Of a DNA stretch of 64,000 bases, positions 5,341 to 43,689 are shown piece after piece. A program made the position numbers and the translations under genes. Positions within the stretch are counted from its first letter, which is position 1. Every line of letters begins with the position of its first letter. Origin of the DNA: Ascidiella aspersa. Its lineage: Eukaryota. Under the pieces are notes generated by a model. It saw only the letters and a program-made list of their open reading frames with translations. It ran no database searches and had not been told where the DNA came from. Where the stretch lies: the NCBI GenBank assembly GCA_963924565.1, contig OZ004609.1, positions 6,510,001-6,574,000 on the forward strand, given 5' to 3'.

Positions 5341-5680
5341 CAGGGGTTCTTAAACTTTTTTCACCGCCGACCCCTAAAATGTGTTTTGGCTTCGCCTGGA
5401 CCACGCTAAGCAAGATTTTTTTAAAAATGACGCCATAAATAGACGTCACAATACAAATAGACTTTGGAAATCTACAGTTTTTGGTCCACAAAAAGTGAAA
5501 GAAAAAAAGAGTATAAATACTTTCAGTGCAAAAACGTTTCATTTTTAATTAAACTCTTTTCTTAGAAAAATTGACTAATTTTTAAATATAAACTAATATT
5601 TCAATTGGGCCTTCACGGACCCCCTAAAACTAGTCCACGAACATCCAAGGGGTCCATGGACCCCAGTTCAAAAACCCCTG
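5341..5680. mobile_element. hAT-like MITE with perfect 8-bp TSD
   Basis: TIRs CAGGGGTTCTTAAACT / AGTTCAAAAACCCCTG; CTCTAGAA on both sides. Confidence 0.9.
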
Positions 5681-11700: not shown

Positions 11701-14700
11701 CACCGCGGAATGCGAGCTCGTCAATGCCGTCCAACACTGCTGTCTTTGATGTCGACTGGCGGAATTCGAATTCTGGCCTGAATAAAGACAGTTCGACGAT
11801 TTTGCTTTTTTTTTTTGGAGGAAAAGAATAAAGTTCCTCTTTGCGACAAAGTTATTTATCAATCTGACGTAAATCGTTATGATAGCAGAGTAAATACCTA
11901 CATCTACTAGTCAGCTAGGTTTGGTTTGTTTTCTGCTGAGTGGTTTTGAGAGGTATACTGCCCACTTATGACGACTGCCAATTTTCTACTGTAGCTACAG
12001 AGGTAGGCTATGTTTTGGAAGTACATTTGTTTTATAAAAACAGCATAAAAACACATGATTGTCGCATCTCAACTTTGGCGAATGTACACAATTAAACAAT
12101 TTAAACTCTGCATCAGTCAAAGTCCTTAATCATTTTCCTTTTTATGCTCTATTGAGTAGACTTTATAGTCTACAGAGGGCAAGACTATTATAAAGAATCA
12201 CTGATCACTACGAATACAGTATTAGCAGAAATATTAACGCAAATATTGAAGTAAGTAAGATTGGGTGAAAGTTTTGAACAAAATTATGTTCAAGTCAATT
12301 TTTGATTTACTCATAATATACACACGATCCATGCTTATTCTTCTGAAGCCTAGGTGAAAATATTTTAAATGTAAGGATATTAAAAAAATCAATTATTTAA
12401 ATTGATGATGACATGGTATTTCCGTATGGGCTTGGATTTAACAGTGTCCGTAAACATGTTCAAAATGAACACAAATTCATTTAACATGGCTATATAATAC
12501 AATCGTTTATCCATGGCCTTGCATTTGAATGTTTAGAAAATAATACTTAGATGGATAACAACTCAGTGAAATTGTCTACTAAATATAACCTATTTATGCA
12601 TGGTTTAGATTTCATGTCTTATACTTCTTGCTTTGCAGCTCTTTCAATTATTCCAGGTAAATATTTGCAACGTTTTCTTAATTTGGGCATCTTTGTTTAC
12701 CAGACAAGGTCATCACCAGTTTGGAACACCAAACTATTTCGTTCATTAGCGTTAGTAAAGTTCCCATTGAACGCTAGTCTGGTTGAAACAATGGATGTGG
12801 AGTTGGGTAAAAACAACCCGAGTCTGATCCGAACGAAAAAATAAAGTCACAGCCCTGGTTTAAACTAAGGATGAGCAACCGATAAAATGTACGCTTAAAG
12901 TTTAGTACCATAAGTCCATAATTTTGCATAATGGTTGGAGGTTGTAGTATCAAGGCCCATACAGAAGTTGGTACCATTCAACATGAAGTTGAAAATGAAC
13001 AAAGAGTTATTCGAAACGTTCAAATTGATACTTACTTCTGTATGGGTTTTAATATTCTTATTATTTCTTTAAACTAATCTGCGATTTCTTTTTAAACTTA
13101 TAAATAAAGTGTCCTTACTCAGGCGTTTCTGTGTACTGAATCATGGCCACTTGGATGCCATCGTTACCGACGTTCGTGAAGCCGTCCACGACGTTCATGA
13201 GGAACTCACGAAGTAGGAAGAATCCGTTCTCACCCACCGATGAGCTCCCGTCAATCACGAAGGCGAGGTCCGACATGGTGCTCTCGCATCCGAGTCCGGG
13301 AGCGACAGAGGACACAACAGGAGCAACTGTGGTCGGAGCAGGAGGCGGAACAGTGGTGGAGGATGGTACTGGTGGAGCTTCCGTAGTCACGATGGGAGCT
13401 GGCTGAGTTGCTTTAATGAAACAGAAAATGTTTGCGCAAAGTTTTCTCAGATAATTACATTTACAAAAAAAACAAAAACCTTGGAGCAGGCTGAGTTGCT
13501 TGAATAGGGAAAATAATGTTTGCGAAAAGTTTCCTCAGACATTACGTTTGAATAACGAAAAGAAAAGATTGGGGCAAGCTCAGTTGCTTTCATAAAGAAA
13601 ACGTGTTCCGTCTTCACTTTTTTAACAAAGTGAATATTAAAAAGACAATAAACAACGCGAAAAAGATTCAGTAGTCTTACGGCGCATTAATGGCTATTTA
13701 ACTGTATTGGGAATTATTAACACTGTGTTGTCTTTAAGAGGACGCCTCGCATTAACAAAGGTTAACAAAGACGTTTCATAATTAAAAAAAAAAAAGTTTT
13801 ATAAGTCAAATAAAATAAGAGTGATAAGTTCGGTTCCATATTTTTCAACATAACAAGCGAACATATAGATTATGATTCTGCGACTTAAGTTGTGGAAACA
13901 GTCGCATATTATTTTTTTAGTCTTAGTTGCTGTAACTCGCCATACGGACTGCAAATTTGTTAATTATTGTTACGAAAAATGGGACATATTTTCATGCATT
14001 TCATTCTAAAAGTCATTATTTGGACTTCAATTCAAGTAGGCCTGCTTTAAAGTAAAAATGATGAAACTTACCGATTGCTTCACGGCCGCCCATACAAACC
14101 CATATTTGATCGCAATGGAACAGTAGTATTTAACGTTTGCAAACCAAGTAAAAAGCAATGCTGAAGGTTTCACACCAAAAAACGCTATCCATGCTCAGAC
14201 AACGGACGTGCAATGGAACCAATGAACGCTTTTTATTAGCATGTTTCATGTTTGGAAAACATTGTCACAATTGCTCTAAGTCGGAAAAACTTCAAACGAA
14301 TTGACCATTTGATGTAAAACAATGGCGAATTTCATGTGAAGATGAGTTCATCAATCCATGTAGGTAAATGGCCCCCACTACACTTCTATTAAACAGTTAT
14401 GGAAAATGCCCAAAGTTGAAGATAAGATTTCAAAAAGATAAGCGCATTTTCTTACAGGTATTATTGCAACGGAGCAAACAGGTGTAGCGGTTGTCGAAGA
14501 CGTTGCTGCCCACACAGTGCATGTAATTGAACATGGCACAGTCCTTGGCCTCCGAATCCCAGTAAAATTTAACCTCGGTCGAGGAGTGGCCAGGCCGTAA
14601 GCAGTTACCCAGGGGTACGGGTTGACCGCAAATGTCGTCAAAGTCACCCGGAGCCACTTCGCCACGGGGGGTGTTCACCCTCCTTGGGGCGGCTGCTGGG

Positions 14701-17700
14701 GGTCAGGAGTTATGTGGACCGAAATGAGGGGTCGAAAAATGTGAGAGGGCGAGATGTCGCGATGATGGGTGAACATTTAACAAATGGACATAACGACATG
14801 TACAGGTTTGGTTTTGGATGAATAAATACCGTTTAGTGTCCGTTGGAAGTTGGTAGAAAGTGAAGGAAATAAAAAACATAAGAATAGAGCTTATTTAAAG
14901 AAGCTAGATAAACATTTTAAATCTAAAGAAACCACGTTCACTATAGTAACAAAATTCTGTGTTACAAGGGACCAGCCACAGATGGAAGTGAGGCATATTG
15001 ATAACACGTGGCTTAAAATTGCCTATATTTGAAAAAAGTCTGAAGTTTTAAGAAACATTTTCCTACCTTCAAACAAATTTAATCCTATACTCAGCATTCC
15101 AAAGTAATTAGACCCTTCCTTTGTTTTTTTGTTTATTTCAATTTTAATCCTGCCTTGCGCTTATAATATTTTGGCTAAACCATTGAAAAGCAGCGAGGCT
15201 CGTTCAACTACTGGTTATTTATTGGCATGCAAAACGACTAGTAAAGCTACTGCGATCACGGACACGGCGAATTGAATTGCGAAACTGCGATGAAGGAAAG
15301 CACGAATTATATTGGGATCAGGGTGCTGGCCGATTGTTCTACACGTAAGTAAACATCTATATATGCTGTAGGTTAGTCAAGACTGGCCAAAGAAGTGCAT
15401 ATGACGCGTGAAAATTACTTTACGGGCAATTCGCTGTATGAGATGAGTTTCACTTAAAGCAGTGGTCGGCAAACTTTGCATTGCGCAAACCAGTACGACA
15501 ACAGGGGAGTATCCGGGATTTGTTAGGACTGGGGGAATCCAATTTTTTAGAGTAACGCCACAAAATTACGCTACACATATTAATTTTGAAAATGTATTGC
15601 AATAAGTATACCGCTATCAGTCACGCGGCGCACAATTACATGATAAAACTAAACTATTAAAAAATAGCTCGCGGCCCACTAAAAATGGCTTTGCGGCCCA
15701 CAGTTTGCCGACCACTGAGGTAAAGTAACAACTGAGATTGGGATTACTTATCGTGGTGAAATTAGTGACACGGTCGACAAGGGAAGACCTATGCTTTTGC
15801 CTCGGCGCGACCAGCAGTCTATACGATTCTTGCTGATATAATGTGAATGAAAATCGCGTTTTTTTTCTCGAACGAAAGAAAACGAGTACTGGATTGAAAA
15901 AAATGACGAAACGCGTGATTTGTTTTGGCTATGAATTGCTCCAAACGCGGAAATTGTGTGCACAGCGGACAGGGGTGTGGGTGAACGGGGGCGCAGGGGC
16001 CTTATTTCTTCGCATCGCCTCGGGACGGGGGGCCTGCAACAAACCAAACGTATACAGGCTGTTTAACCAGTTTTTTGGCAGTAGTATATTAATGGTATGG
16101 GGCACTTTTAATATAATATATGAACATCGGTGCCGTTATTTACTTGTTGATAAGGTTTACTGGCCAAACTTGTTGGTAGAACCCAGTGTTGTATTGAGTT
16201 AAGTCAATGACTTGACGTTTTATTTTTAGGACAGGTTGTTTACTTGAAGTTGACTTGCTATAATTATGATTTGACTGGGACTTAGTTCTTAAAATGAATT
16301 GTTTACAACACTGAAAGAATCCAATACATTTCTGTACCCCGTGATGATTATTAATATGCCCGTAAGTTAGATTTATCATTGGATTTTTTTTGGTGGGGGG
16401 AGGGGTTTGACAGAGCTGTCACGAGGCGATGCGTAGCAAAATGGAATGTCGTCTGTTAATTTGTTTCTACGTTTTGGAACTCTATTCAAGAAAAAATTGA
16501 ACTATAGACTGAACTTTTCGGGGCGGATGATAGAAGCGCAGGTTTAAAGGGGCGACTAAACACTAGTAACTGCAGCGGCATCAGTGTATAGCTGTACAGC
16601 TACATTGTATAGAGTAACATTGCCAAAGCAAAAGGCCAAGCGGGTCACGAACTGGCCACGTGGGGCGTAAAAGCGAGAAACAACACCTTTTAAAACGAAG
16701 CAAACTACAATTGCTGCTGCACTACAGGATTAGATATACGCGACGCAATTTTGGAACTCAGAGGTTGCGGCCGGAAAGATTAAAGGATGTAAAGCAAGGG
16801 GGATTACGCGGTTTTACATTGGGATGTCCGATAACAACGTTTCGGGGACGATACTCTGTTAATTTATTGTATCGGCAACCGTCTAATATTATTTCGGCGA
16901 TACCAAATAAATTTCAGCATTTCAGCCATGTGATAGAACTAATCGTATTTCTATTTGAAATTCAACTGTTTGCACAAAATAGCTTATTTACAATAAATTT
17001 AACTAAGAGTTACAGTCATTAAGCATTTTTTGCTTACCAGCCATGAAACCATTGTGCTCGAACTTTAAGGCTTAAAATTTTTCTAATTTGACCACAATAA
17101 ACAGGTCATTGGTTTGTGATAGATCGGCCGGTATCGCGATAAAACACGAAGTATCGGACATCCCTGGTTTTAAGCTTCAGAGGATATATATATGCTGAAT
17201 ACAATGTCTTTTTGTTTCGTAATGATTTCTAAAGTCTTATATATGCTGAGGGTGTGGAAAGAGACATATGACGTCATTTGGCCACGGCGTCGTCATCAGT
17301 GACGTGGCTTCTTTCCGTGGTGACGTCGAAAACGAGCAACTGCGCAAAAAGAAAAAAAGGGCGGTTTAGGGAGTTGCCGGGGCCAGGGTGTTCGTTTTAA
17401 ACACGTCATCAGTGCCATGCGTGACGTCACATATCGAGGCAACTCCCCAACTTCGCCCTTTCTTTTCGGTCCGCTCGTTTGTGACGTCACCATGGCACTG
17501 CAATGAAAAACAAACTCGCGAGCAGTGGAAGCGCTCATGGCATATTAATTCGATAAGGTTTTTAGAAAAATTGAAAAAAAAACGTTCGAAAAGTTTGCAA
17601 AATAACACATTCTACTAATACATGGACAATTTTTTATGGACATGTGACCTGACAATTGCTTTAAGACCGTCCTTTTTATGATTTTTTGTAATTTTTTGAT

Positions 17701-20700
17701 CTACAGCCCTCTTAGAAAGTATTTTTTTCTTACTTGTGAGAAAACTCCTTTTTAAGGTTTTTTAAAAGAAAAAAAAATTTCTCAGTAATAAGAAATTACC
17801 CTAATCATGGTTGATTGTTTTGTTTTCCTAACTTCAATTGTTGCTTACAAAGCATTGTCAAGAGACAATTGTGGTTGAAGAACAGCATTGATAGCTTGCT
17901 AGGTAAGTTAGTTCGCTAGGAATGCTAGTTTTGTAGTAAATAACAGTGTTTAGTTAGCACAATTTTTATAGAGGCTAAATTTAAAAATAAGCAAACGCAC
18001 AATATGACTGTTCTTATAAAATCATATTTTTTCAAGTCATTTGATTGTTGAGTACCAAATCTACGGTAGCCCTGTTCAGAAATGAACCACTTCTTATCAC
18101 ACCTTATTTATCACCAGCAGCCCTTCTAAAGTCGTACAGACCAACCATATCAATAAAAGCAAATAGTATTTATAAACCGCGAAGCTTACCGAAATCAGTC
18201 GGCCTACCAATCGATTTCATGAAAGCAAAAAAAAAAAAAACTATCCTGTTGTGTTGTCGAAGTCCTCAACCATACCGTAACCGTATCATGACTGTATTTC
18301 GAAAATGGGCTATTTTTTAAGCCTAACTTTGCTTTGTTAGCAATCCTTGGTAGGACGACTGGTTTTGGTCTTTAAAAATGCACACTATACGCGCTATAAG
18401 TGTTATTTTTAACATAAAATAAAAAGTCGCGTTACTTACTTGTTGTTACAGCAGTGTCACCGGCGTCTGCAAAACAAATATGAAAATTTAAGAAACTTAA
18501 CAATTATTGACGCAAAATGGCATGTGTTTTAACATATAATTTTAAAACACAAAATTGCATACGAGCAGACGGAGCGATTGGGCAATATTTGCAGGTGCAT
18601 GCGTGTAATACACGAATAAATTTAATTAAAGGCTTTGCGGCGTGCAAGCAGGAGACAAAAAGGAAAATACTAAGTGACACGAACACTTAGTGTATTTAAA
18701 TATACGACTAAAATCAGCCCCATGCAAAGCAGCTGGCAGACAAGCAATTATCACCAACATGCAAATTAAAAAAAACGCTGCAGAACAACGAATAAATTGC
18801 ACATAGAATAATTGAAACGAATCGCATGACAGTTGCATATCACGTACAGAACATTTACGGAATAAATTACGAATAATTTCTAAGTGCAAGGTCATTCAGA
18901 AGAAAATTCAAGTAACAGAAAGAAACTGCAAATTACGATTAGAAATATTGCGAAAGGATAGGAGCAATTACGAGTAGCAATAATTACATACGAGAAAACA
19001 AGAGAAAAAATTACATTTACTTCCATTTTTTATGGTTAGGCAGCATACGAAAAAGAAAGTAGTGCAAATGAAAAAAGTTATTGTCATTAGTTCGGCCAAA
19101 CACAGTTGATTGCAACAGGATTCTTCGGACATGCTTGACAGCCAAAAATGGGAATGAAAAAGTAAAAGTTAGACAAAAGGCTGCGCGATAAAACAAAACC
19201 GCTGTTTTTAGGTCAGATTGCATGACAAATGTTACGCGGTCCTATATAACTAAAGTCCATTTCCACCGTTATATGGAACATGCTACAAGTTTGAATCGAA
19301 TACATCGCTAGAAAACAGCTGTTTCTTTTGGCAATATTTTTGCACTTGTGGCATTTTTCAGCCAAAGTATACATTACGGTCTTGATGTGTCTAATAAATC
19401 CCATGCAACTAGCCTACAAGGCAGAGATCGTTCGAACTACGAAAGTTTAAAATCCCTGTTGGAAATTAAAGTAAAGCAGAACGAAAATAGAAGAAAAGTT
19501 AGCCCAGCAATCCAACTATATTAAAGTAGCGATAAAGTTTCCTGGTCGATGATACATAACAAGAAAGATAAGGAAGGGATGTTTAATTACTTAAGTCGTG
19601 TGATCCAATAAAACGCAGCAGATTTAATAGTGAATGAGATACCGGGAGTAACAGAAATTGAGGGATGCAAGACATATACAGCTTATCTTACCAATGCGCA
19701 TTGTACAGTTAAAATCTGAGATGCTTCGAACAATGAATCCCATGACCAGCCAGATGGAAAATATTAGATAAGCATAAAATGAAATAGAAGAGGAGCAAAA
19801 ATTCTAAGTTAGGGTAGCCACAGGATTCAGAGATCAAAACGACTGATCCTATATTTTTGGAATTGAATGTTATTACTAAGGACAAAAACTGTAGACCTTT
19901 CAAAATGTTAAGGGATCTGTAATTCAAATCTTTTAAAACAGCGGAACTGACCCAGACCTAAGACTAAATTCTTCGTCAAGCGGAAAATAGAAAAGAGATA
20001 GAAATAGAAAATTAAAACGAAGAGGCAGTGAGACATTGAAGAGATAAAAGGGATATGGTCAGAACTAATTTCCTTGGAAGAAACTTATAGGCTATTAAAA
20101 CAGACGGCACAAATCAAAATTCAGAGAATGAGAACTGCAGTGAACGTCTGCTGCAAGACTTCAAGGAAGATGAGTGAAAGATAGAAAACGAAGACGATAA
20201 CAAGAGAGCAAGAAGTAAATGAAGAGAATGCGAAGCAGCAATCAGCGGCTTAAATAATGGAAAAAGAGATGGCAAGATGAAATTACTTTTAGAGCAACGT
20301 AGCATCCGAGAACAGAAAATTATCAGCTGCGGTTGGTTTGCAAGAGAGAAAAGATCAAAGAAGAGAATAGAAAGAGGCAGTGATGCAAGTGAGAATTAAG
20401 GAGCAAGAAAGACTTGCGCTACGCTGTCTGCCATTTGCCAACCGTCAAAGGCCGGTCTTCTAAAGACTGAGACGTGATTTACCTGCGATGATGGCGTCGA
20501 TGCCTGCGCAAGTCTTCTCAACGATGCCCGAAATAATGGAGCCGAGCGCTGCGAAGTCGTCTACGTTGTACAAGTGCCCGTTGCTGCTGAAGTCGATCAG
20601 CTCGTCGTTGTCGACCTTGCTTCCGACTCCCACAGCGATCATCATCTGGAAGTTTTCGTGCGCCAGCAGAATTTCGGCGGCGTTGCGCTCGTCGCTGGCG

Positions 20701-23700
20701 TCGCCGTCGGTCATGGTGATAAGAATCTTATAGGAGCCAGGCCGCATTTCGGGCACCACCTCCCGGTTTACAAACTCAATGGCGGTGTAGGTCTTGGTGC
20801 CTGAGCGCATCTGTTGGATGTTGCGCACTTGCTGATCGATTTCGCCGATTCCTCCCACCACGTTCTGGTGCACTTCGATCATGCTGCGCTCCGAGTATTG
20901 GATCACGTCCACGTGGATCGGGATCTCGCGCATTCCCGGCTTGAAGCTGTCCACGGTGAGAAGGATCCAGTCCTTGACACGTTCGAACTCGTCGCGACCG
21001 ATTGAGTCGCTGCCGTCCACCAGGAAGGCGATGTCGACCGGATATTCCTCGCAGGTCACTGGGGCTGGACCCTCCACTGTTTGGCAGCAAACAACGAAAC
21101 CGTCACAACAACATTACTTACACGCACGCGATAACGGGGCGACAGATTACTCGGGTGCGAATTGACATAATGGCGACGTAAAAACGGGAAAACTGTTTTG
21201 CCCGACCTTGTCAGGCCTGCCTTGTAAGGTAACAGTAACACTCGCGATTTTAATGGAGAAAAATAAGGTTTAGATTTAAAATTTTCAGCGAAAAGGAAAA
21301 GGCCTTGACACGCATACAAAAATGCAAAAAAATGGCAGCGACAAATACGTTGCGTCATTATCCTACCAGGGCTTCAATTTTGTAGCACGAAAAATATTGG
21401 CACCAACAATGCGGGAAAACTACACTAAAAAGAAGCTCTGTCGGTGCTTATTCATTTTCTCCAACGTTTTGTTTGTCGGTTATCGCATTTGTATCGTTGT
21501 ATTTTTTTACAATCCCTGATAAAGGCACCCTGCTTAGGTAGCAGAAACCTTGGTGAAAATAAACAAGTACCAGATGAGCATTTTTTGGTATACTATTCCT
21601 GGTAGCAACAGCATTTTTAAAGCGGAAAAACGGTGCATATAAGCTTGTCAGTTACTGCCCGGACAGGTCCTAGCAACGAATACGATTTAAAGCTCACAAT
21701 CTAGGCGTAAAAAAGCGTTGTGTTACCTTACCAAGGCCTGCTCTCAAAGGCGGCAGCAGTATGCGAGGTTCTTTAGCGAAAAACGGCGACATACATACGG
21801 GACCTGGGGCCGAAAAAGCGTGCGCGCAAAAGCGGTGCTGCGTTTATTTAACAAGTGAATATCGACAGCGGTGGTGGATCAAAAAGTAAATATGCCGCAT
21901 GCAACCGAGTGGCGTTCGTTCAGCATCAACGCATTTCTTCAAGACAAATCTTTCAATTTTAAATATTATTTCTGAAACCTTGCGCTTTTAAATCGAAGGC
22001 GATGAGATATTTTTTATACAGAATGCCGGCATGTTTTTGTTACAGCTCTTTATAAATTTTGCTTAAAATACTTTCATGTTATTTTTAGGAATTATTTAAA
22101 CTATTATTTTACAGACACCCTATTTATATTTAAATCTGCGCCAATTAAATTGCATTTCATTTTAAAAGTCTTTTATTATTTTGTGTAGTTTGCTTTGCGT
22201 ATTATGAATATCAGAGAAAATGGGAATTAAAGAATTATAAAAGAATTTTTGCGACATTATTTATTTAGTTTTAATTCATTAGGTTGTAGTTTGGACAAAT
22301 TCATAATGTTGGTCGTATATTATTTAGTGTATGATGCTTACTGGACGTTCAACAATCAACTCGGCATACGTTGCAATTGCAAGAGGCTTCCATAATAGTT
22401 TATATTATGGACGGCGTGCATTTAGCATTTACACGAATATACACTCTTTGATCAATCGCACAAAACTCCCGACCGGTGCACGTCAATCGACGGGTAATGT
22501 AGATAGAAAAAGTCACTTACCGCATTCTGAAAAAAAAATAGAAATTATTATAAAGTGTCCAAGATCAATCTGACAGTTTTCAAAGGCAATATGTAGTAAC
22601 TTCCTTATTTAAGTTGTAAACGATTTCCGCCCAAAAGGCAAGCCGTCTCCCGAAAATTGTGCAGACAAGTAATAGTTTTCAATTATTTATAAAGTTAATC
22701 ATAAACCACAAAATTGCACAATAAATAAATATGTGTTAAGGTGAACCTTACCATTGCAAAACAATATTTAAAAAGTAATAACGAGCACAGCTTTTACATG
22801 ATATTGATTGAAAAATCTTTTCACGACTTTACTCCATGATTTAAATGTCCTTAATGGGTAGCCTATAGCCCTATAATATAGTTACTGACAGTGTATATCG
22901 CGATAAACACTGTTTTATTAGTAAAATTACAATAGCCAGAAAAGCTGTTGAATGGTCATTTATAATGCCTTCTAAAAACTGGAAAATGCCAATGTAGAAA
23001 TAAAACTAAGTACTTGATATCAATTTATTTCTAAAAAGCCATAAATAACATTTTGTTTACACTACACGGATCTGTAATGTAGCTTGATAATGAATTGCAA
23101 AGTCAAAAATATCGAGTAGATCGACGTCATCTTGATCATTAAGACATTTCGATAAGAGCTTGTATCATAAACAGTTAACGTCGGACATAACTGAAGATGA
23201 TACAAGCTCTTATCGAAACGTCTCAATAATCAAGATAATTAGGATCTACTCGACCTTTTTAGCTTTGCAATTCATTATCGAACGGTTTGTTCTTGTTATA
23301 TTAGCACCTGCTGGCATCAGTTCCCTCACAATCTCAGCGATGATGGGTCGCAACTCTGCAAGGTTGAGTGATCCTGGTGGACCTCTGGGTCCTGGAATAC
23401 CCTGTAAAAATTTTAGTGATACTTAGTGTTCCTGGGAATGGTGACCGTGTCGATCACGCGACGGTATAAATTTGCACAAAATTGTACCTTATTATTATTA
23501 TGTTAATTTGACCTGTTTTATTTACTTAAAACTCGTCTTTGAGAATATTAATCACCAATCTGACTTTAAACGAAGTCATAAATGCAACGGTTGTACATCT
23601 TAGATTTAAGATCATTATGTGAAATCGGTAGCTGGATAAGCGAGCCTGCTTTATAGCATTATATAAACAAAATTTTACCTTTTTTAGGCGTTCGTGGCAT

Positions 23701-26700: not shown

Positions 26701-29700
26701 TTGCCGCAAGCCTTCGAACAGTTAGCGAATGCTCGTAAAGTTTGCCCTGTCTCCCAAGTAGCCCATTTTTTTGGTTTTGACAGGCATAGGCTTGTGGTAA
26801 CGCCAATTGCAAACAAATGGTGGCATTTTGCTTTTATAAACGTTCGGGACTTAAGGACCGGCGGTGGCAGCTAGAGAGGAGAAAGAAAGCAAACATAGAA
26901 AATACGCACAAGTAGTGTTACTTATTAATATATCGGCTCATTTTTGGTGAATAATATCAATAGTGTATGATATATATTATAATAAATTTAATTTCAGAGA
27001 CGGTTGGCAAAAATAAAATGAAAATATTAATTCTTAAATATTAAACATAATTAAACAGTTATTTTAAAGGTAATGGAAAGGTGGTGAAGGTGTAAATGGA
27101 AAAGGCGCATAAACTTTTAAATGTAATGGACAGGTGCAGACATTTTAACTGCTTTTCTCGTTAAACTACTTCTTGAACTGTGTAAATTAAAAGTGACATT
27201 TTGCGTAGTTCTTTTAAATAGGGTTTTATTTTCACAAAATTATGTTTTACACAGTTATAGGCTTGCCTTACGAAAGTGAAAATAGCGTTCGCGTTAAGCA
27301 ATTCTTTCTAATCATTTCCTAAATAAACCAAACCAGAACAAGATAAAAAAGCTATTCTGTCTGGGGAAAATTTTGTTGCCTGTTTGTGTTAAGTACGATT
27401 TATTTAAAGTAAAATAAAACAAAGGGCACCGATAGATAGAGATTTGGATAAAGATTGATAACAATGGTGTGTTTGGGCAATATCAATATTTTGTCAATTT
27501 AATGTTACATTCCGAGAAATCGATTTTGCTTTGAACTTTTAAGTGCAAAAACTGGTGATGGCAATTAAAGGGCGTAAAAGGCAAAATATTTAGCAAGAAA
27601 CTCGACTTACTCTTTCTCCTGACGGTCCACGTTCGCCTCTCGGTCCTTGGACGCCTTGTGGTCCCTGCAAATAAAAACGAGAAAAATTGATCGTTTTGAA
27701 AATCAACAAGCCTTGTGTTACATCACAATCACGCGTCGAGTCGTACTTACCCTGCCTCCGTCCACGCCGTCAATTCCGGGGATGCCTTCTACGCCCTAAA
27801 CAAGAAAAATACACAGGTAAAAATCAACAGGATGTTAAGGCTTGGAGAAAACTCTCCGCTATAGGTAAGATTGATTGTCGCCCCGTTGCCTTATCTGGTT
27901 GGATAGCGATCTGCAACCCTATCGCATGTTGGTGTTTGTTTAAGATAACCTAAATTTTGTTCGACCGATCGTTAGCCACAATTGATGCAGCTGTCCTTTT
28001 AATGTCAAAAAAACGGTGCTATTTGCATAACTTCGCCCTGCGCATAACTTCACTCCGGGGCAATCTGGTTAAATCAACGACAGAACTTTCTCTCTACAAC
28101 ACTGAAATGAAGGTTTACGAACCGGTTCACCAGCTGGTCCAGGTTGTCCACAAAGACCTTGACGTCCAACTTCACCCTAAAAAGAAAGAAAAATCAATCG
28201 ACGTTAATTCAATTCAAGCAAAATAAACGTTGTCAAAAATGAAGTCCGCGATTCGCGTCACATACTTTAAAAGATATGCAGCTTATCAACATGGTTATTT
28301 TTAAAATGACATAGGCTACCTCGAAAATAGTTTGGTTCATTCATCAACTGCTGCAAGAAAAAGCAAATAAAAGCTGCTTCATTGTTGTGTTATTTCATAT
28401 TCTTGAAAGGTGGCGCTAAAACTTGTTCTACTAATATAACAAAACTGATTTGATGTTTAAATGAAGATTGTTTTAAGCATGAGCGATAAGAAGCACTGAT
28501 AAAATTCGTAGGTTGTAGGCTAGCTTGAATCAACACTGAAAAAAAACATTTTTGTTTGATGTTTTTTGTTGTTGTATAGCGTTTTTTAGCATTTAAGGGT
28601 CGGTTTTAAGTTGTTTTGGGTCAGTTTCACGTTGGTTATCGTTTGATTTAATAAGTTTTACGTTTAGCACTGTCAAATCAAGTTGTGCCGTTGCGTTGAT
28701 CAGCAGCTTACCTTGGGTCCATCTCTTCCATCGTTTCCGGTCATACCCTTGGGTCCAATAGGTCCTTCTTCGCCACGTTCACCCTAAAACAAATACCGGT
28801 AACTTAAAAGTGACAGGATACAAATATCCCTAAAATGTTTTCAAAATACCTTAAATAAAGTACGCGTGTATGGGACACAATGGGAAACAATAAGTTTTAA
28901 CTTTAATAGTTGTAATTGTTTTGGTAATAGCCTACAAATATTATTATATGGGGTAAACGTATAGTTTTATTAAAAATGCATAAACCTAATCATTGTTGCT
29001 TATTTTTCATACATAGCTTTTTTCAGACATTCAAGGGTTCTGCCAATTAAACTTCAGTTGTGATTCTGTTTGTATAGAAAACAATAACGTTTTACATGCC
29101 TTAAAAAGTAGAAATTATATGCTGGAAAAGTTAAACAGCAACTAAAACAGTGTATTATCTCAAGGATTACCTGGATTCCAATTCCGGGTTCGCCCTTAGG
29201 TCCACGTGGTCCTTCTTCGCCCTTAAAATAAAAGTGCAAGATATTAGAACACGTAAAAACTTTCTTATGCTAATATTGTAAATTACTGAAATTTTTGAAA
29301 GGCACTATCGCATAACTCTAAACAAGCATTTCTACTAACTTACCGGCACTCCGTCTTCACCGTTGTCACCTGGTTCACCCTGCAATGGTAAACATGTAGT
29401 TATCAGAATAAACGTCGCAGAATAAAGGTTAAGCAATAAATTTTAAAATGTAACCACATTGGTCGATAAACCACATTCATCCAGAGTAGGAAAATATTAA
29501 ACCCTACGGCCAATTTTCGTTCACGAACCGTGTTTAGTTTCGACTTAGAGTAACATAACATTATATAACTATATTCTACACATTCCAAGTAGTGCCCTAT
29601 ATTGCATAGTTAACACAAGAAAAGGCATTACTGATTATTGAAATAAGAATAACGATCTAGAAAAAGTATAATGTTAAGTAGCTTATAAATATAAATGTTT

Positions 29701-32700: not shown

Positions 32701-35700
32701 TTATTATTTTAAAATAGTTTTGGTCATCAAATATTCAATATAATTAGACGAGTGTTGGTCTACTTACCTGTGGACCATCATCTCCCTGAAAAACAAAAAT
32801 AGACATCGATTAAAAACTTTATTCATTACACCACAAAGTAAAAATACATCACAACAAAAAGTAAAAAACGATATTATATACACAAATCTACGAAATTAAG
32901 TTAGACTAGCTAATATGTTATGATTCGCTTTAGAAACTTTTTCTGAAACAGTGTAGCCTAATTATGTTACCGTTTCGCCTTGAACACCTCTAGGTCCACG
33001 AGGTCCGATTTCTCCTTTGGGTCCAACTTCTCCCTGAAAGGTAAACAATCAATAGCTATTAAGCTAACTTAATTTCTTAAAATTGAAAACAACTTTTTTG
33101 AGCAGCATGCTAATCAAAAAGCAGCATGGGAGTTGAAGATATTCACTACGAATCCCAAGTAAACTATTTAGTTTGGAAAACATCTTCCAATAAGTCTCAA
33201 ATTATGTCTCTTGTAATTTAATAAAACTCTGCTTTAATACTTAGAAAATCTTGAGTTAATGTAGTAACTTGGGTTTTCAGGAGAGCCAAAAGCTTTTCGA
33301 ACTAACGCAGGAAACCTTTTTAGAGACGCTTATTTAAATGTGGTAAGATGAACTTTTAGCCTTGTATAAAATGTGTGGTTGATAGCATTTACATATGAAG
33401 AAAATTCCCTACCAGGGCAAATATCTATTAAGATGACCTTATAATATGGGCTATAATTAATGCTGAAACTTACCTTGATCGACTTTCCGTCGTCGCCCTG
33501 TGGGCCTTCGGGTCCCTGCGGTCCGATTGGCAGCTAAAAGAGAAAATAAACGGAAATCGTTTAATGCACCCGTCTGACTCTATTTCAAAGCTTATGTCTA
33601 GTCGAGAAAGGCGGGAAAATTTGGTTATTCGGTCGACGCAGTTTAACATTTACATTTTCACGACCGCATGACTAGTCGTTCGACCCAGTGTTGTTTATAG
33701 AATTATTTTAGCTATGTATCTAGGTTACAGGGATGAGACAAATCCAGTATGGGGCTATAATTATGCCCCAGCTTTTCTTTTGTTTACTACTTTTCCTAGT
33801 GGAGTAATTGTGCAAACTAGGCGTGACAATCGTTCTACATATACAGTTCATATATACATTGTATATCTAAAGCAGTGGCTTATAGTTTAATTCTCGCGAA
33901 ACGGGCATTTTAACAACTTATGGGGCGTAATTTAAACAGTGGTATAATGTGCTATTTTGATCGCTGAAAGGCAAAGAGTTTGGATTGTTTAATTAAATTT
34001 GTAAAGCGAATAATATGGATAGTATTGTTCTTTAACGTAATCATACTAAAAACGTTAAGAACTACCGATCTAACATTCTACAGTACTTGAATTGCAAATA
34101 TCAATTTTATAAGAGCTTTATAATTATCTGCTTTCCTTAAAGCGATTTTGCAATTAGCGTTTTTCTTATTTTAAAAATTTGGCGTATACAAGAGCAAAAC
34201 CTACATTAATAAAACTTTACAGTAACGGTCAACTACTCTTCGATATTACTGGAAAATAATCTTAGTTAAGTTGTTATGCCATTTTTTAGCCATTTTAACT
34301 CGAAAGATTTTCCTAAAGCCGCAATTCAACAGGCAAAACAACAACGTGACTTAGTGCTCCTTTGGTACAATCAAGCTGAGCATGCCGTGTGTTAACGCCA
34401 GTGGGAGTACAAAAGCAGGTTTTATCCAAGAGTCGTGCACGTTTTATATTTCCTACACAGTGTCATTGGAAACTCATTTTTTATTGTTTCCAATGTGGCA
34501 TGCTTGATTTTGATTTGCGTGTTGATTGGGTCTTATTGAAACCGCTTGATAATAACCAGCATGACGCCAAATTAGCTGCGTGATAGTGATTGTAAAGGAG
34601 CGAACGTGAAGGCAGAGCTATATACAAGAACGTTTGGTTGTTTTCCAAATGACATATTGGTCTATGAACGTTTGTACTTGTGATTTTTCTTTCTTATTTC
34701 CTTCAACTTGTTATATTATACTTCTGATTTAATCGAATAGTACTCGTGCAACATATTTCATTGGTACTCGCAGTTTAATAGAAGAGTTTTCGTCCAGCTC
34801 GCTTTTTTCACTGGTAGTTTGGTCGAGTAGTTCTCATTTAACTAGTTTTATTGAACTTACAGTTTAATTGATTTGTTATTGCCAATACGTTTAATATACT
34901 ATAACAATAATCAATAATCTACAACCCAAACCCAATCACTCAGTGCAATAGGAATCCATGTATTATTACTGGTCACGAGAGGTAAGTATATACTACAGTA
35001 CAGGGGTTAATAAAAAATTTAGTAGCAGAAAATGGATTGCTAAAGGGCGACTCCACCAATACTAATTTTTTATAAATGTGCGATCGGTATGTAACAAAGT
35101 CTGTTATTGCCATTAATAGGCCGCGCAGAAGTTAAAGTTATTTGCCGACTGAAGGAAAATTGAAACGGACGAATAGAGTGTAAAGTGACGAAATAATGGG
35201 GCTGTGAATGACGCACTTTGCGCTTTGCTTACGTCGCTAAACGTAGTAACCAGATAAGCGAAACAACTGACTTAAAGCCGTTTAAGAGAATTTAAGTAAA
35301 AAGCATATTCCACTGTTTAGGAAGCAAAGAGAAGTTTGGCTGTTTTTCTGCCGAAATTCCCGTTTTTTCTAGAATTTTAAAAACCGTGACCGGGCGTTCC
35401 GGTCAAATATATCGCTCAAATTTGTACCAGTTTTCCTTTTCTGTTATTATGAACTAATCTACAAAGCTTGTCTAACACCAACTAGATTTCGGGTGTGTGC
35501 CATAGATTTTGTTGTATTGGATAAATTTATTTTTCTGTATTTTTATTTCGTTTTGTAGCGATAGTTTTAGTTACAAAGTTCGACTACCAGATTTTAGTAC
35601 AAATTATAAAATAAAATATTTGTATATGTTTTACATTTTTAGCTAGGTATAATGCTTCCTATATATCAAATTATTAGCTATAAACACTTTAAACATAAAC

Positions 35701-38700
35701 CTTTTTGATGGATGTGTTAGCAAGGCGTCTCATTTAAAACTGCGACAAAGGGGCAATATTGGGAGTGGTATAAGGATGATAAATTTCCATAGGAACATGG
35801 CCAACTTTAGTTGGGATACAGTAGGTTGTAAAGTGCTTTACTTACCTCACACTGGCAGGTGCAGTTGTTACATGAAGGTCCGGTAAGAGGGGCAGGAGCG
35901 TCGTTGCCACACTAGATGTTTAGAACAAAATATAACCGACATTTACACAAATATTTTAGTTGTGAAACAAGTTTTTTTTGACTTGTAATAGCTAATCAAC
36001 CATTTGTTCGTTTGGTATAACATAATTATTGTAATAAATTGTACTATTTTCGTTATAGTATTAGCAAGTTAATAAAGATCGGGCCATTCGCTGTTTAACA
36101 ACAAGTTAGTAAACCGGCATATTCCATCTATATTGTGGATCTCTAATAAATAATTCAAACTGTTTGTTTTACAATAGGAATTTGGTAATGTATCCAGAAA
36201 GTCATTTTTAGTTTAAGTTAAATAACCGTGCTTTTTGCTTCAGTGGTCATAGTCGCTCTGAAAGAAAGTTACCGGCACTTTGCTGTATCTATTAGCGCAC
36301 AATACCGGCTGCAGATAGCATAGGCCAGGCCACATTTAAAGACACATCGAAGGGAAATGGTCACGGCGAATTGTGGCCAAATCACTTGGTATTGTCGTTC
36401 TCTGCTGTGTTAGATTCGAGATAAGGCGGGGAAGGCGATAAGCGCATTCAAACGTAAACAAAACTTCAGGCGCGGTTCCGGTCGGCCGGCAATTGTCACA
36501 GCCCGAATCCTATTGGCTGGAGAACGAAAGAAAAAGGCACATGCTCTCTTATCTCTCTCGTCTTCTCTCACCTTCTGCAAAACAAAAAAACGGAAGCGTT
36601 TTTACTTCGAGCCCGATATCCGATACGATAAAGAGTTGAGCCTTAAAAAAGCAAGTCTCGTTTGTGAGTGTATGCACGACTTTAAGTGCGCTCAGGGTTG
36701 CATCGACCCTTGAAACTTTTATATTGGCGTATATATATATTCTATTTGAACCTTTAGCAATAGCTGGCAAAAGAAGCAACGCTAGTATTTCCTCATTTTG
36801 TAAAAACAATGATTAAAAAATGAGTTTTTTATTATAAAGTAATGTACAATAGGGTTAAGTAAACTTCCTTTGTTGAGGGATTCCATATTTAACCGCTATA
36901 CAGCAAACTATGTATGATCAGTTGCTTGGTTTAAATTGGTTATAAACTGTTTAAAGATCGCGTTCTTATGCAGCGCATAGTCTGCTGAAAATCTAAAATA
37001 AATACAATTACCGTAACTACATTCATCAATACTACCCAGGACAAACATCATTAAAATCAATGCAAAGTGCAAAGGTAAATGTCACACTGACTGGCAGCAT
37101 GCCAGGGGATTTTAAATTATTTTATTCAGCACTTTTCACAAGAGGACAGTGTTTAGGTTTTTAGGGTGCAAACGTTGTTCTACTAATTTTGTTCGACTTA
37201 CTTCAAGGGCCTTTACGATGTCGTTAATGGTGTCTTGGCTTCTCATCTCGAAGAAAGTAGAAGTTGCCTCTCGTCCAACCCTGGCCAGCTCATTCATGGT
37301 GACGACGTCAGGGCAGTTTCCTTCATTCCATCCATCGTTCATCGGACCGCTGAGGAATAAAGTCAAGACTAGAGCTTAACCCTGGTGTTCTTGTATAACC
37401 CTGTATCTAGACACATCACATGCATTCAAATATGGCAATTTTGGCACATTGGTTAGCTATAAGGAATGTTATTGCTACATACAGTAATAGGTTGGGTACC
37501 CATACATATTCGCAAGTTTTTAGAATATAATTTATCTTAGCGAAACTCTCTTGTATCTACAAGGCACATAATTTCATGTTGAATTTGTTTTCTAAAAAAC
37601 GGGTATTGGTAGTTTTACGGCCACAAAATAAACACTAAAATTGCCAAAAGCAGAAAAATCATCTTTCAAAGTCGATTTCTTTCAGGAAGTTACAAATACC
37701 ACATCTTGACACAGCCAATACAGACTGCAAATTGAAGAAGTTAATAAGCGTACCATGCAATGGATATTGGGGAAAACTAAATGTTTAGCTACTTAGAATT
37801 ATTTGCTCTAGCTACTTAAGAATTATTAACTAAAAATAAGCCCCCAGTAAAAAAACATTTGATCATTATAACCTGAGGACGATTCCTTTAGGCAAAATAG
37901 ATTCTCACACAATAAAGCGCGGGCCACCCGTCGTCCTATTTTCGAGAAGGAAGTATTGCTTGTCAGGCAACACACCACCCACGTCGACCTCTATACTGAG
38001 CCTGTTGGCGTTTGCTCCGAGTTGGAATGTTATATGACCGTCCAATATTATCCCACAAATGTCAACGTACAAGGATCCTTTGATAGCGCAGGCCTTAAGG
38101 GTTTAGCAATTATTTACGTAGTGTACAAGTATTCTACATGCCCTATCCTACATGCGTCATATCGAAGAAACCGGATACATTTATGATTTTACGTCGTGTG
38201 ACAAGAGAAAAGGATGTACTAATGTACAAGTGTAGCAAATAGTCTTTGGAGATAAATCAGATAACGGCAAATTTAATAGTGATATGTTTTAAATCTAGCC
38301 GAAGAATATTTTTTGCGCATATATAACTTATAGGTTTATGCTGAATTAAGTATAATATTCGTCTCCACAAATATACCTTTGTGGCGACATTCTTGCAATA
38401 AAAATTTGAATAAAAATATCTGCATTTTCAGAAACATGGTCAATCACAGAAACCGCACGTTTTTTGAGCTACGATTATTATCTTAGCTTAATTGATTACT
38501 ATGAAACATGGGTACCCCATATTGGTGTTTGTAGAGGGCTCCAGCTGACCAAGCTGCGGCCGTGCACTCTGATATCTTTTGGCTATTTTTAATCGTGGGA
38601 AATTATTCATTCTTTTATGTTATTGTTTTCTACCTTTTCCAGCTGTATATATTTGATGATATCCATGCCTACTATAGTTTCAGAAACAAATACACTTTAT

Positions 38701-41700
38701 TGCAGGCGTCTTTAAAGGAAAGGTAAAACTCACTGGCATTCGCGTGTCACTGATACTGGGAAGACGACCACTCCTGCGTTATCCAGTCCTCTGATTGAAG
38801 CCTCAATGTCATCCATTGTGACGGTCGGGTGGCTCTTGCCGTTGGTCATCAGGATAAGAACCTAGATCATAACGTGAGACTGAAATCTTAGATGTGAGAG
38901 TTAAAAACTAATCATAACGTGAAAGTGAAATCTTTAAAGTGAGAGTTGAATGCTAATCATAACGCGAGAGTGAATCGGACATGTGTTTTACGACCGTTTG
39001 GCGATTTCAGCGGCACCGGCATGTCTGGAAGGTGACGTTTGCTAACGTTTTAAAACCGAGCAAATACGGTATCTGGTCACGATCGAATGCATATAATATA
39101 GGACACCGCTGAGAATGCAAACGAGTTTTAAGGAATTTTAGGAAATGGTGGTGATCGTATGGTAATTTATCAATTGTTCTAGTTTATGGTTCAAGGTTGA
39201 ATATCCTTCAAAATATTTCACAGTAATATCTTCATTCGGTTTTTGTTTGAGGCCTGAGGGTATACGAAACTTGAACATATCAGCTCGGTAATAGATGTAA
39301 GTCTCGCTTCATGCCATGACCCCTTCACTGGTTATAAAAGAAACTAATTTTCTCGAGTTTATTTATGTTTATTAAAGGCGAAAAATGATTAAACAAACTA
39401 GCTGGAGATTCGGGATCAGGGTTAAACTTATTGTGTCAACATGAAAATCGTTGTGTCATACTATAGGATGACCTTTTTTAAGATACTTACTAAATGTATT
39501 ATTTCATTAGGTCGAATGCATGTGTTTACCTCAGAAAACTATGTAGTCCTTTCGTTAGTAGTTTAAAGATTTGTGTTGCAACAAGAATAGAGCATTAATT
39601 AAATTAGATACGAAAACGAACACGATGCTTTAGGAAGACTAAACCTAGATATTTTGATTGAAATTGAGAGGGCTGACCAAAAAGACAAAACTATCTTAAC
39701 AATTTTTCTACGTTGCTATTTGGTTTCTTTTTAGAATTTTATTATAAAAAGTTGCAAATCGATTACCTTGCGCGGCTCGGTGGGATATATTGCCTCGATC
39801 GATTCTGGTGTCCGTGGTTCGTTTTCGAAGTGGTACACAGATCGGTTGAGAGCTGCAAAAACAACAAACAAAGACAACTGTAAATCGAATCTGCCAACAC
39901 AAGTTTCGGCCACAAACAAGCTTCCGATTACACAGTAAAACTTAAATGTTGCTTTGTGGAATCGTCATCAAACACATTATAATGAATTACAAATCCAAAA
40001 TTTTCAAGTAGATCGACATCATCTTACTTCTCAGTATATTAACTGAGGTTGATACAAGTTCGTATCGAAACGTCTTAATTAAGATGATGTCATTCTACTC
40101 GACCTTTTTGGCTTTTCAATTCGATACCAAGTTACATTACAAATGCGTCAATAAGTAGCTAAAAAGTATACATTTAGTAAACATTTGGTGTGTCGGCGTT
40201 TTCTGTACGTAAGTTATCAAAAACCAAATTTTATTCCATATTTTCTAAACCTGGCGCTATGATCTAATTGCTCAAGTTTCGAGAAGAAATTACCTTTGTT
40301 AAGAAAAGAGCCTTCGCCAAGAAAGGCGAGTTGGTTAAGCTTGTCGTTGACTGCTCTCAAGAGGTCTTTCGGCCCGCTTGGATTCGTATAACTTTCGAAG
40401 TCGCTCAGTTCAATTGGGTAGATGATATTGCTGCTGAACTGTATTGAAAAGAAAAGAAAAAAAACGTTAATTGGTACAAGCAAAGAAGGACTGTCGCCTC
40501 GCAAATGGTCTCCAAATGCGACACGCACATATTTGGTCATTATATCGAAACTACGCGTTTCTATGTGCCAATCACTTGTCACAAAGCATATTGGGTAGTT
40601 AAGATAGCTGCAAGTTGTAACATAAAAAGTTTGGAGCATAATAGCTGAAATGTGATTATAATAGCTTCGAATAAAATTGTAATGATTTTTAACATCAATG
40701 ATCAAACAAATGATAACGTTGAAAGTGTATAAGATTTATTCCAAACTTTTACAAAATTCTATTCACTGGTGTATGGCGTTTAATATTTATTCTGCGTGAA
40801 ACCAATGTCAGACAAGTTTTCTCAAAATGTGCTGGGAATATCCATCTGGAAGGTTAGGGACGACTTAACAGCAGCTAGTCAATTGTGAAAATCTCCCGGG
40901 AAACACGATACCATGCCCTTTCCGTAAGAAGCTAAGGTCATTACGTGACCTCTGTGGCCTTGCCGGCCTCAATGGCCGTCAGGTGACGTCATTATCTGGA
41001 ATGACCTTTTGAAGTATGGAGTGTGATGTCACAAAGCCTCGTGTGACGTATTATAGTAATCTTTAGGTTAAATTATAGCTCTACCCGGGAGGGATTTCAT
41101 TGCTTGTTAAAGGCGGAAACCAAGAGTCTATATCGTTTTACATCCAGCCAGGTTGGTTGACAGAACATTCAGTCAGACAAGCGTCTTTAAAAAACAGTAG
41201 TTTCCGCTTTACGGCTCGGTCGTTAAAGACTCATGGACGGCAAACTTTTCCATGTGGGCGCAATGTTTAACCGAGGCGCTATTCCCGGGTTTGACATTAG
41301 CACAAGTGATGAGAAGTGCGTCGTTTACGAGACAGCTAAATGCCAGCGGCGACTGTCTTTACGATACGGGACTAGACGTCGTTCTTTGTAGAGCCTTATT
41401 GCGTTTGCGGTGACGCCCGTTCTAGTTCGAGCAGTGATTCCCAAACTGTGTGCCGCGGCATACTAGTGTGCCTCGAGAGATTGCCAAGTGTGCCGCGGAA
41501 CGTTTGGTACTTTTGGAAACATAATATTAGTATTACCATTAGGCATACACTCAAGTATTTAATCCTTAAAAATGCATTATCCATTACAAATTAATCATAT
41601 TGAAACATTTACATATAGTTCGTCGTGTGTGCAGGGCGATTTATAAAATTACTCTATTGTTGTTCTGTTAAAAGTGTGCCACGAAATATTTACGATTTTT

Positions 41701-43614: not shown

Positions 43615-43689
43615 GGCGATTATCGCGCGGTGTTTTGTGGTGTACAAAAATATGTTTATTTACTATACACCTTCTATTGATTAGGCTGC

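What the first reader, a model, noticed from the sequence alone, without database searches (positions are those of the whole stretch)
22521..22526. 6-nt microexon that inserts Glu-Cys right after the trimerisation helix
Seen: T-tract-cag|AATGCG|gtaagtgac in the intron after the last helix exon. Inclusion gives ...IVRELMPA-E-C; skipping removes the Cys without a frameshift. Known: collagen VI and XXVIII chains have a short amphipathic helix followed by Cys residues just after the triple helix, implicated in trimer assembly and disulfide locking. Inference: the microexon may act as an on/off switch for an interchain disulfide. Gene predictors usually miss exons this small.
Basis: partly seen in the sequence, partly recalled or inferred. 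Interest (0 to 1): 0.7.

Follow-up and report, generated by a model that had tools for sequence, protein, structure and literature searches.

The report
Conserved cysteine microexon in sea-squirt collagen
A six-base exon in a sea-squirt collagen gene is real, is spliced into the main transcript and has a counterpart in related animals; it supplies one cysteine that likely acts as a permanent cross-link between collagen chains rather than an on/off switch.

Summary
The 6-nt exon at 22526-22521 (minus strand) is real. Spliced contigs of run X3 show it in the dominant path (depth 211.7), and a minor contig uses its acceptor directly. A genomic orthologue (L005, 65% identical VWA domain) has a 9-nt exon at the same place and phase encoding D-C-A. 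Of 21 tunicate-type orthologue sequences, 19 keep this Cys; the other two look like gene-model errors at this exact spot, and none is a clean skip. Styela isoforms that drop the whole next VWA exon still keep E-C. In both species its splice sites outscore all 15 control exons, and the flanking introns are not conserved, which is the profile of a constitutive microexon. The on/off switch is not supported, but assembled contigs drop rare forms, so minority skipping stays open. The Cys is likely unpaired within its chain and so likely cross-links chains or trimers, as coiled-coil cysteines do in collagen VI. No disulfide was shown. A recalled 9-nt exon at the aligned site of human COL6A1 hints at ancient homology; my searches did not confirm it.

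The parts
22521..22526 (-). 6-nt microexon, phase 1-1, adds Glu-Cys
   Evidence: In the dominant spliced contig of X3, acceptor use shown by a second contig; 9-nt counterpart at L005:5529-5537
22527..22546 (-). Polypyrimidine tract and cag acceptor of the microexon
   Evidence: 12.8 bits, above 15 of 15 control acceptors
22515..22520 (-). gtaagt donor of the microexon
   Evidence: 8.5 bits, above 15 of 15 control donors; same hexamer in L005
23308..23401 (-). 94-nt exon: end of the triple helix plus amphipathic helix (predicted trimerisation coil)
   Evidence: Joined to the microexon in X3; 94 nt in L005 too; hydrophobic moment peaks at 100 degrees; helix 140-154 in the model of the Ciona orthologue
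20483..21076 (-). VWA2 exon (594 nt, phase 1-1) with one Cys at each end of the domain
   Evidence: Pfam VWA E 1.5e-26; both ends spliced in X3
18440..18466 (-). 27-nt small exon after VWA2
   Evidence: Joined to VWA2 in 6 X5 reads and one X3 contig; a 27-nt candidate exon lies at the matching place, L005:8522-8548
28123..28176 (-). Collagen exon holding the single triple-helix Cys (GLCG motif), candidate partner of the microexon Cys
   Evidence: 154 residues before the microexon Cys in the window and in 19 of 21 orthologue sequences; pairing is inferred
14430..14702 (-). Kunitz-domain reading frame (optional exon in Ciona isoforms); exon ends not mapped by RNA
   Evidence: Pfam Kunitz 27.7 bits, cut-off 21; present in 3 of 5 Ciona RefSeq isoforms
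13115..13534 (-). Reading frame with the first part of VWA3; exon ends not mapped by RNA
   Evidence: Pfam VWA E 4.3e-11
21732..21803 (-).
   Evidence: No joint in X3 or X5, and the intron-retaining contig reads through it; no similarity in the L005 intron, 108 of 200 shuffles score as high
33474..43620 (-). N-terminal exons: N-terminal leader, VWA1, Cys-rich linker and start of the triple helix
   Evidence: tblastn of orthologue N-termini

Best explanation
This is a real, frame-preserving microexon that is spliced into the main transcript of an ascidian collagen VI/XXVIII-like gene and is likely constitutive; its one cysteine likely forms a fixed disulfide cross-link between chains or trimers rather than a regulated switch. 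Shown: the exon and its inclusion in the dominant RNA path; a same-position, same-phase microexon in a second species; conservation of the Cys. Inferred mechanism: (1) very strong splice sites let the tiny exon be recognised by default, and the one splicing intermediate seen had lost the upstream intron first. (2) Three chains align through the amphipathic helix. (3) The Cys at each end of VWA2 and of VWA3 pair inside their domains, as in other VWA domains, leaving the microexon Cys free. (4) It bonds to a neighbouring chain, or, as I favour, to the single triple-helix Cys of an antiparallel trimer 154 residues away, as alpha2(VI) Cys600 is proposed to do in collagen VI. That would give dimers with about 41 nm overlap.
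For: RNA: main X3 contig (depth 211.7) includes the exon; a minor contig (7.93) uses its acceptor. Orthologue DNA: 9-nt D-C-A exon between a 94-nt helix exon and the VWA exon in L005. Proteins: 19 of 21 keep the Cys three residues after the helix-ending Pro, and 0 of 21 show a clean skip. This holds although the Ciona and Styela isoform sets vary at other places. Styela X4 and X5 drop VWA2 with both its Cys but keep E-C. Both splice sites exceed 15 of 15 control exons in both species. Flanks are not conserved: 11 of 200 shuffles score as high upstream, 187 of 200 downstream, and there is no GCATG within 150 nt. Constitutive microexons have stronger sites and alternative ones have conserved flanks (PMC4317164, passages). 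The Ciona G-D-C aligns with S-C-C of alpha1(VI). Coiled-coil Cys form interchain and probably inter-monomer disulfides in collagen VI (PMC12354898, passages and section 8). In the monomer model the Cys lies in a low-confidence loop outside the VWA fold.
Against: No inclusion level was measured. Contigs drop rare variants, only one run was informative, and the raw-read run listed nothing at this junction (depth 0.79, about 6% of the run read). Annotated isoform sets under-report rare forms. The splice-site matrix rests on 15 exons from two species, and control scores were leave-one-out while the microexon was scored with the full matrix. No disulfide was tested. There is one Cys here where collagen VI has CXCC. 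The fixed 154-residue spacing is weak support, because the rest of the helix is almost as fixed (175 or 172 residues).
Confidence: 0.7

Rival explanations
1. Regulated disulfide switch: the exon is skipped in some tissue or stage, giving chains that trimerise but cannot be locked or cannot dimerise.
For: Skipping keeps the frame. The gene is alternatively spliced nearby: Kunitz exon and one-residue variants in Ciona, VWA2 skipping in Styela. Exon length stays a multiple of three in both species. Contigs would hide a minor skipped form.
Against: No skipped contig; 0 of 21 orthologue sequences skip cleanly; strongest splice sites scored; no conserved flanks and no RBFOX motif. A multiple of three is also forced in a constitutive exon lying between two phase-1 boundaries.
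Confidence: 0.12
2. Constitutive exon, but the Cys bonds within its own chain (with the Cys before VWA2) or stays free, so it only tethers the linker.
For: A second Cys lies 7-14 residues downstream in the orthologue sequences that keep VWA2. A homotrimer with one such Cys per chain cannot form a symmetric ring. Pairing in the collagen VI junction is heterogeneous (PMC12354898, passages).
Against: The downstream Cys has a natural partner at the VWA2 C-terminus, conserved in the sequences listed. Styela isoforms lacking VWA2 keep the microexon Cys.
Confidence: 0.15
3. Chance splice-like motif in an intron, not an exon.
For: About 0.7 such sites are expected per 64-kb strand by chance.
Against: Spliced inclusion in X3, an orthologous microexon in L005 and the conserved Cys.
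Confidence: 0.01

Closest known systems
Tunicate orthologues: Styela clava 'collagen alpha-1(XXVIII) chain-like' (XP_039263575-579) and Ciona intestinalis 'matrilin-1-like' (XP_078481142-146)
   Same: Triple helix, short helix, [DE]-C, then VWA domains, with an N-terminal VWA in the full-length Styela models; VWA2 52% and 64% identical; same 154-residue Cys spacing.
   Different: Their exon structure could not be read here. A 6-nt exon in Styela is inferred from where its isoforms and one model diverge on either side of E-C. Two models (XP_077972708.1 and F6QQE0) look mis-built at this spot.
Vertebrate collagen VI alpha1/alpha2 chains (PDB 9HAN, 9GTU; PMC12354898)
   Same: N-terminal VWA, a triple helix of about 300 residues with one Cys, a short coil, junction Cys and two C-terminal VWA domains. 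Ciona G-D-C aligns with alpha1(VI) S-C-C. From memory only: human COL6A1 encodes that tripeptide on a 9-nt phase-1 exon.
   Different: One Cys here instead of CXCC. The helix is about 306 residues against about 335 (recalled). There is an optional Kunitz exon between the two C-terminal VWA domains. No partner chain was found in this genome (a weak search), so it may be a homotrimer. Orthology was not tested by a tree.
Vertebrate collagen XXVIII (architecture recalled: VWA - triple helix - VWA - Kunitz)
   Same: VWA on both sides of the helix, and a Kunitz domain; NCBI names the Styela gene after it.
   Different: An extra VWA follows the Kunitz domain, the Kunitz is optional, and the helix is much shorter than the roughly 528 residues recalled for COL28A1.
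Constitutively spliced microexons (PMC4317164)
   Same: Very short, with unusually strong 5' and 3' splice sites and unconserved flanks.
   Different: That study is on mammals and notes that constitutive microexons become rare at the smallest sizes; inclusion across tissues was not measured here.

Membership tests
Constitutive microexon | Internal exon of at most 51 nt that is spliced in | tested here: met
   6 nt, present in spliced contigs of X3
Constitutive microexon | Splice sites stronger than those of ordinary exons | tested here: met
   Above 15 of 15 control acceptors and donors in the window and in L005 (small home-made matrix)
Constitutive microexon | Inclusion of at least 90% across tissues | tested here: inconclusive
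   Dominant path in one contig set; raw reads too shallow
Regulated (alternative) microexon | A skipped isoform exists | tested here: inconclusive
   None in X3 contigs, which drop rare forms; 0 of 21 orthologue sequences skip cleanly
Regulated (alternative) microexon | Conserved intronic flanks | tested here: not met
   Window against L005: 11 of 200 (upstream) and 187 of 200 (downstream) shuffles score as high; only two distant species were compared
Regulated (alternative) microexon | RBFOX (GCATG) motifs and weak splice sites | tested here: not met
   0 GCATG within 150 nt on either side in both species; the sites are strong
Regulated (alternative) microexon | SRRM3/4-type UGC close upstream of the acceptor (feature recalled) | tested here: not met
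   Nearest upstream TGC in the window is at -62; L005 has -42, -27 and -5, the last within the acceptor. The search for the regulator's domain was uninformative.
Collagen VI chain | Short amphipathic coil right after the triple helix | tested here: met
   Hydrophobic moment maximum at 100 degrees; helix 140-154 in the Ciona model at modest confidence; aligned
Collagen VI chain | CXCC motif at the end of the coil | tested here: not met
   A single Cys in the window, in L005 and in 19 orthologue sequences
Collagen VI chain | One Cys in the triple helix and two C-terminal VWA domains | tested here: met
Collagen VI chain | Heterotrimer of three gene products | tested here: inconclusive
   Only the window's own copy matched the helix exon in G000 (1 candidate scored)
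Collagen VI chain | Groups with COL6 chains in a phylogeny | not tested
   No vertebrate COL6A1, COL6A2 or COL28A1 sequence was obtained as a stored protein
Collagen VI chain | Interchain disulfides through the junction Cys | not testable with these tools
   Needs non-reducing gels or disulfide mapping
Collagen XXVIII | VWA - helix - VWA - terminal Kunitz (recalled) | tested here: not met
   Kunitz is present but optional and followed by a third VWA
Collagen XXVIII | Triple helix of about 528 residues (recalled) | tested here: not met
   About 306 residues in the window if no exon was missed; 308 in Styela

The most novel reading that the evidence does not exclude
The exon is an ancient chordate 'cysteine lock' module, homologous to the recalled 9-nt exon of human COL6A1, that sets whether collagen trimers are bonded into antiparallel dimers, and ascidians skip it in some tissue or stage to switch matrix assembly off. 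Deep homology alone, without skipping, I put at about 0.35; the probability given is for homology plus regulated skipping.
Probability: 0.1. Interest if true: 0.72.

Novelty: new member of a known kind. Interest (0 to 1): 0.36.

Why it matters
It is a validated, conserved 6-nt exon that carries a structurally placed cysteine, at a spot where two public tunicate gene models look mis-built, so it can correct annotation. It also offers a one-cysteine, possibly homotrimeric version of the collagen VI junction. There, nine cysteines lie close together and their pairing is unresolved (PMC12354898), so this simpler chain could test which bond drives antiparallel dimer formation. If the exon proves homologous to the small COL6A1 exon, it dates that splice architecture to before tunicates and vertebrates split. 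Without skipping, it is not a new regulatory mechanism.

Tried and rejected
Raw reads: X5 (about 6% of the run read) listed no joint or loose end at the microexon, because depth was about 1 and the listing threshold is 3 reads. It is uninformative either way; it did show the downstream junction in 6 reads. The first lay over 19.5 kb was swamped by repeats. No holder was on record as RNA. The 72-nt exon at 21803-21732 was rejected as unsupported. Another place in the intron as source of the 6 nt was rejected: the two other AATGCG copies lack splice flanks and no AATGTG occurs. RNA editing for the difference at 22522 was considered; an allele is likelier because the intron-retaining contig carries two intronic differences as well; not checked in DNA. 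I first read the 154-residue spacing as a specific ruler. I downgraded it after finding that the apparent variation in the N-terminal helix part was a pattern artefact; it is 175 or 172. The search for the SRRM_C domain in G000 found nothing and its control did not ring, so it is no evidence. The single-sequence fold of VWA2 was low confidence (pLDDT 44). The fold search of the Ciona monomer model returned generic VWA matches, with collagen VI 9gtu_C at rank 6. Attempts to confirm the recalled 9-nt COL6A1 exon failed: searches; term look-ups in PMC9286875, PMC5300266, PMC12257123 and PMC6027950 (no main text held); and supplements of PMC7821500 and PMC4317164, one file of the latter not searchable. 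Six papers asked for by id were not held. Searches for a description of this exon or gene family found nothing relevant, but most subscription journals are not in the library. Earlier findings of the scan: none bore on this.

Full report
Setting. The finding lies in a minus-strand gene spanning at least 43620 to 13115. Its closest named relatives are ascidian proteins: Ciona 64% and Styela 52% identity over the VWA domain. The layout is N-terminal leader, VWA1, Cys-rich linker, a triple helix of about 306 residues, a short amphipathic helix, VWA2, a 27-nt exon, a Kunitz frame and VWA3. One search with the helix exon found only this copy in the genome (one candidate scored, so weak).

Observation. 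The upstream exon (23401-23308) ends in phase 1 and the VWA2 exon (21076-20483) starts in phase 1, so inclusion adds Glu-Cys and skipping would keep the frame. Sequence alone does not prove it: one site per strand of this strength was found where about 0.7 is expected from 20 Markov resamples.

RNA. Five runs were listed, none of the four indexed holders on record as RNA. X1 and X2 behave as DNA, with contigs running through the introns. X3 behaves as RNA: exon depth 211.7, intron depth 4-9, and contigs joined at splice sites. Its main contig covers VWA2 and continues without a break through the six bases into the upstream exon. A minor contig (depth 7.93) joins the upstream exon to the microexon acceptor and then reads on through the downstream intron, which pins the exon to 22526-22521 and shows one intermediate with the upstream intron removed first. 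The main contig has a synonymous change in the Cys codon, probably allelic. No skipped contig appears, but such contigs drop rare variants, so this shows only that inclusion dominates in one sample. The raw-read run X5 was too shallow at this junction; it confirmed the next junction in 6 reads.

Conservation. A scan of the metagenome collection returned one genomic orthologue among 135 pattern matches, L005 (65% identity). It has the same 94-nt helix exon, then a 9-nt exon (5529-5537; D-C-A, phase 1-1, T-rich cag acceptor, gtaagt donor), then the VWA exon. Of 26 proteins fetched I dropped five that lack the region or are not orthologues (P0008, P0009, P0015, P0020, P0025). Of the remaining 21, from about five lineages, 19 have a Cys three residues after the helix-ending Pro. 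The two exceptions are a newer Styela model with a 37-residue insert in place of E-C and an older Ciona model lacking the end of the helix. Both look like prediction errors, which is my inference. None of the 21 is a clean skip, although these isoform sets vary elsewhere. Styela isoforms X4 and X5 omit the entire VWA2 exon but keep E-C, and the residue after the Cys changes with the next exon, as a phase-1 boundary there predicts.

Splicing signature. With a matrix from 15 collagen exons of the window and L005, the microexon acceptor and donor outscore all 15 controls in both species (the first version included four spurious entries and was redone). The flanks show no clear conservation and no GCATG. 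In mammals about 81% of microexons are constitutive, these have stronger splice sites, and alternative ones have conserved flanks (PMC4317164, passages). The exon fits the constitutive class.

Mechanism. The helix before the Cys is amphipathic and is predicted as a helix in the Ciona orthologue; the Cys sits in a low-confidence loop outside the VWA fold. This stretch aligns with the coiled coil and S-C-C of collagen VI alpha1. In collagen VI that coil is needed for trimer formation, its CXCC cysteines form interchain bonds, and alpha2 Cys600 appears to bond to the single triple-helix Cys of an antiparallel monomer (PMC12354898, passages and section 8). Here VWA2 and VWA3 each have a Cys at both ends, which by established knowledge of VWA domains pair internally. 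That leaves the microexon Cys and one triple-helix Cys unpaired, three of each per trimer. They are 154 residues apart in the window and in 19 of 21 sequences, but the rest of the helix is nearly as fixed, so this is weak support. I favour an inter-trimer bond giving antiparallel dimers. The overlap would be about 41 nm: 131 helix residues at about 0.29 nm each, from the paper's 90 residues per 26.3 nm, plus the coil. A bond within the trimer is the next option.

Comparison with what is known. It works like the Cys-rich junction of collagen VI but fails the CXCC test, and it fails the recalled collagen XXVIII layout, so I do not file the gene under either family; no tree was built. From memory, human COL6A1 encodes the aligned tripeptide on a 9-nt phase-1 exon. 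Six searches and several look-ups did not confirm this, so it is a lead only. I found no paper on this exon (PMC12724666 was irrelevant on the passages seen), within a library that lacks most subscription journals.

Verdict. It is a real, conserved, mostly or always included microexon that supplies a likely cross-linking cysteine (confidence 0.7). A regulated switch gets about 0.12. New member of a known kind; interest 0.36.

Noticed in passing
window 36574-36572 (minus): Candidate 3-nt exon (one Lys, phase 0-0) between the last VWA1 exon (ends 37202) and the Cys-rich linker exon (starts 35911); acceptor 14.6 bits, donor 6.8 bits. At the matching site older Styela models have a single Asp where the newer model has a 16-residue insert, suggesting a second missed microexon. 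No RNA test.
   Followed up: partly
window 18466-18440 (minus); L005:8522-8548: 27-nt exon after VWA2, spliced in X5 and X3, with a same-length candidate in L005. The X3 contig ends exactly at its 3' end, suggesting alternative downstream exons; X5 reads continue with three letters that fit an acceptor at 13326, which would skip the Kunitz exon.
   Followed up: partly
window 22522: The main X3 contig has a synonymous difference in the microexon Cys codon (TGC to TGT); probably allelic.
   Followed up: partly
window 23086-23279: High-copy inverted repeat element in the intron just downstream of the helix exon (82% self-match; very high DNA depth).
   Followed up: no
window 15104-17707: Stranded RNA depth of 2-10 in X5 inside an intron of the gene, higher than on coding exons; the first two bins overlap repeats, and an alternative terminal exon is possible.
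   Followed up: no
window 19700-20400 (plus-strand view A-rich): Long pyrimidine-rich stretch on the minus strand just after the VWA2 exon, with an open frame on the minus strand at 20114-20395; possibly a decayed mobile element.
   Followed up: no
P0012 (XP_077972708.1) and P0004 (F6QQE0): Public gene models that appear mis-built exactly at the microexon position.
   Followed up: partly
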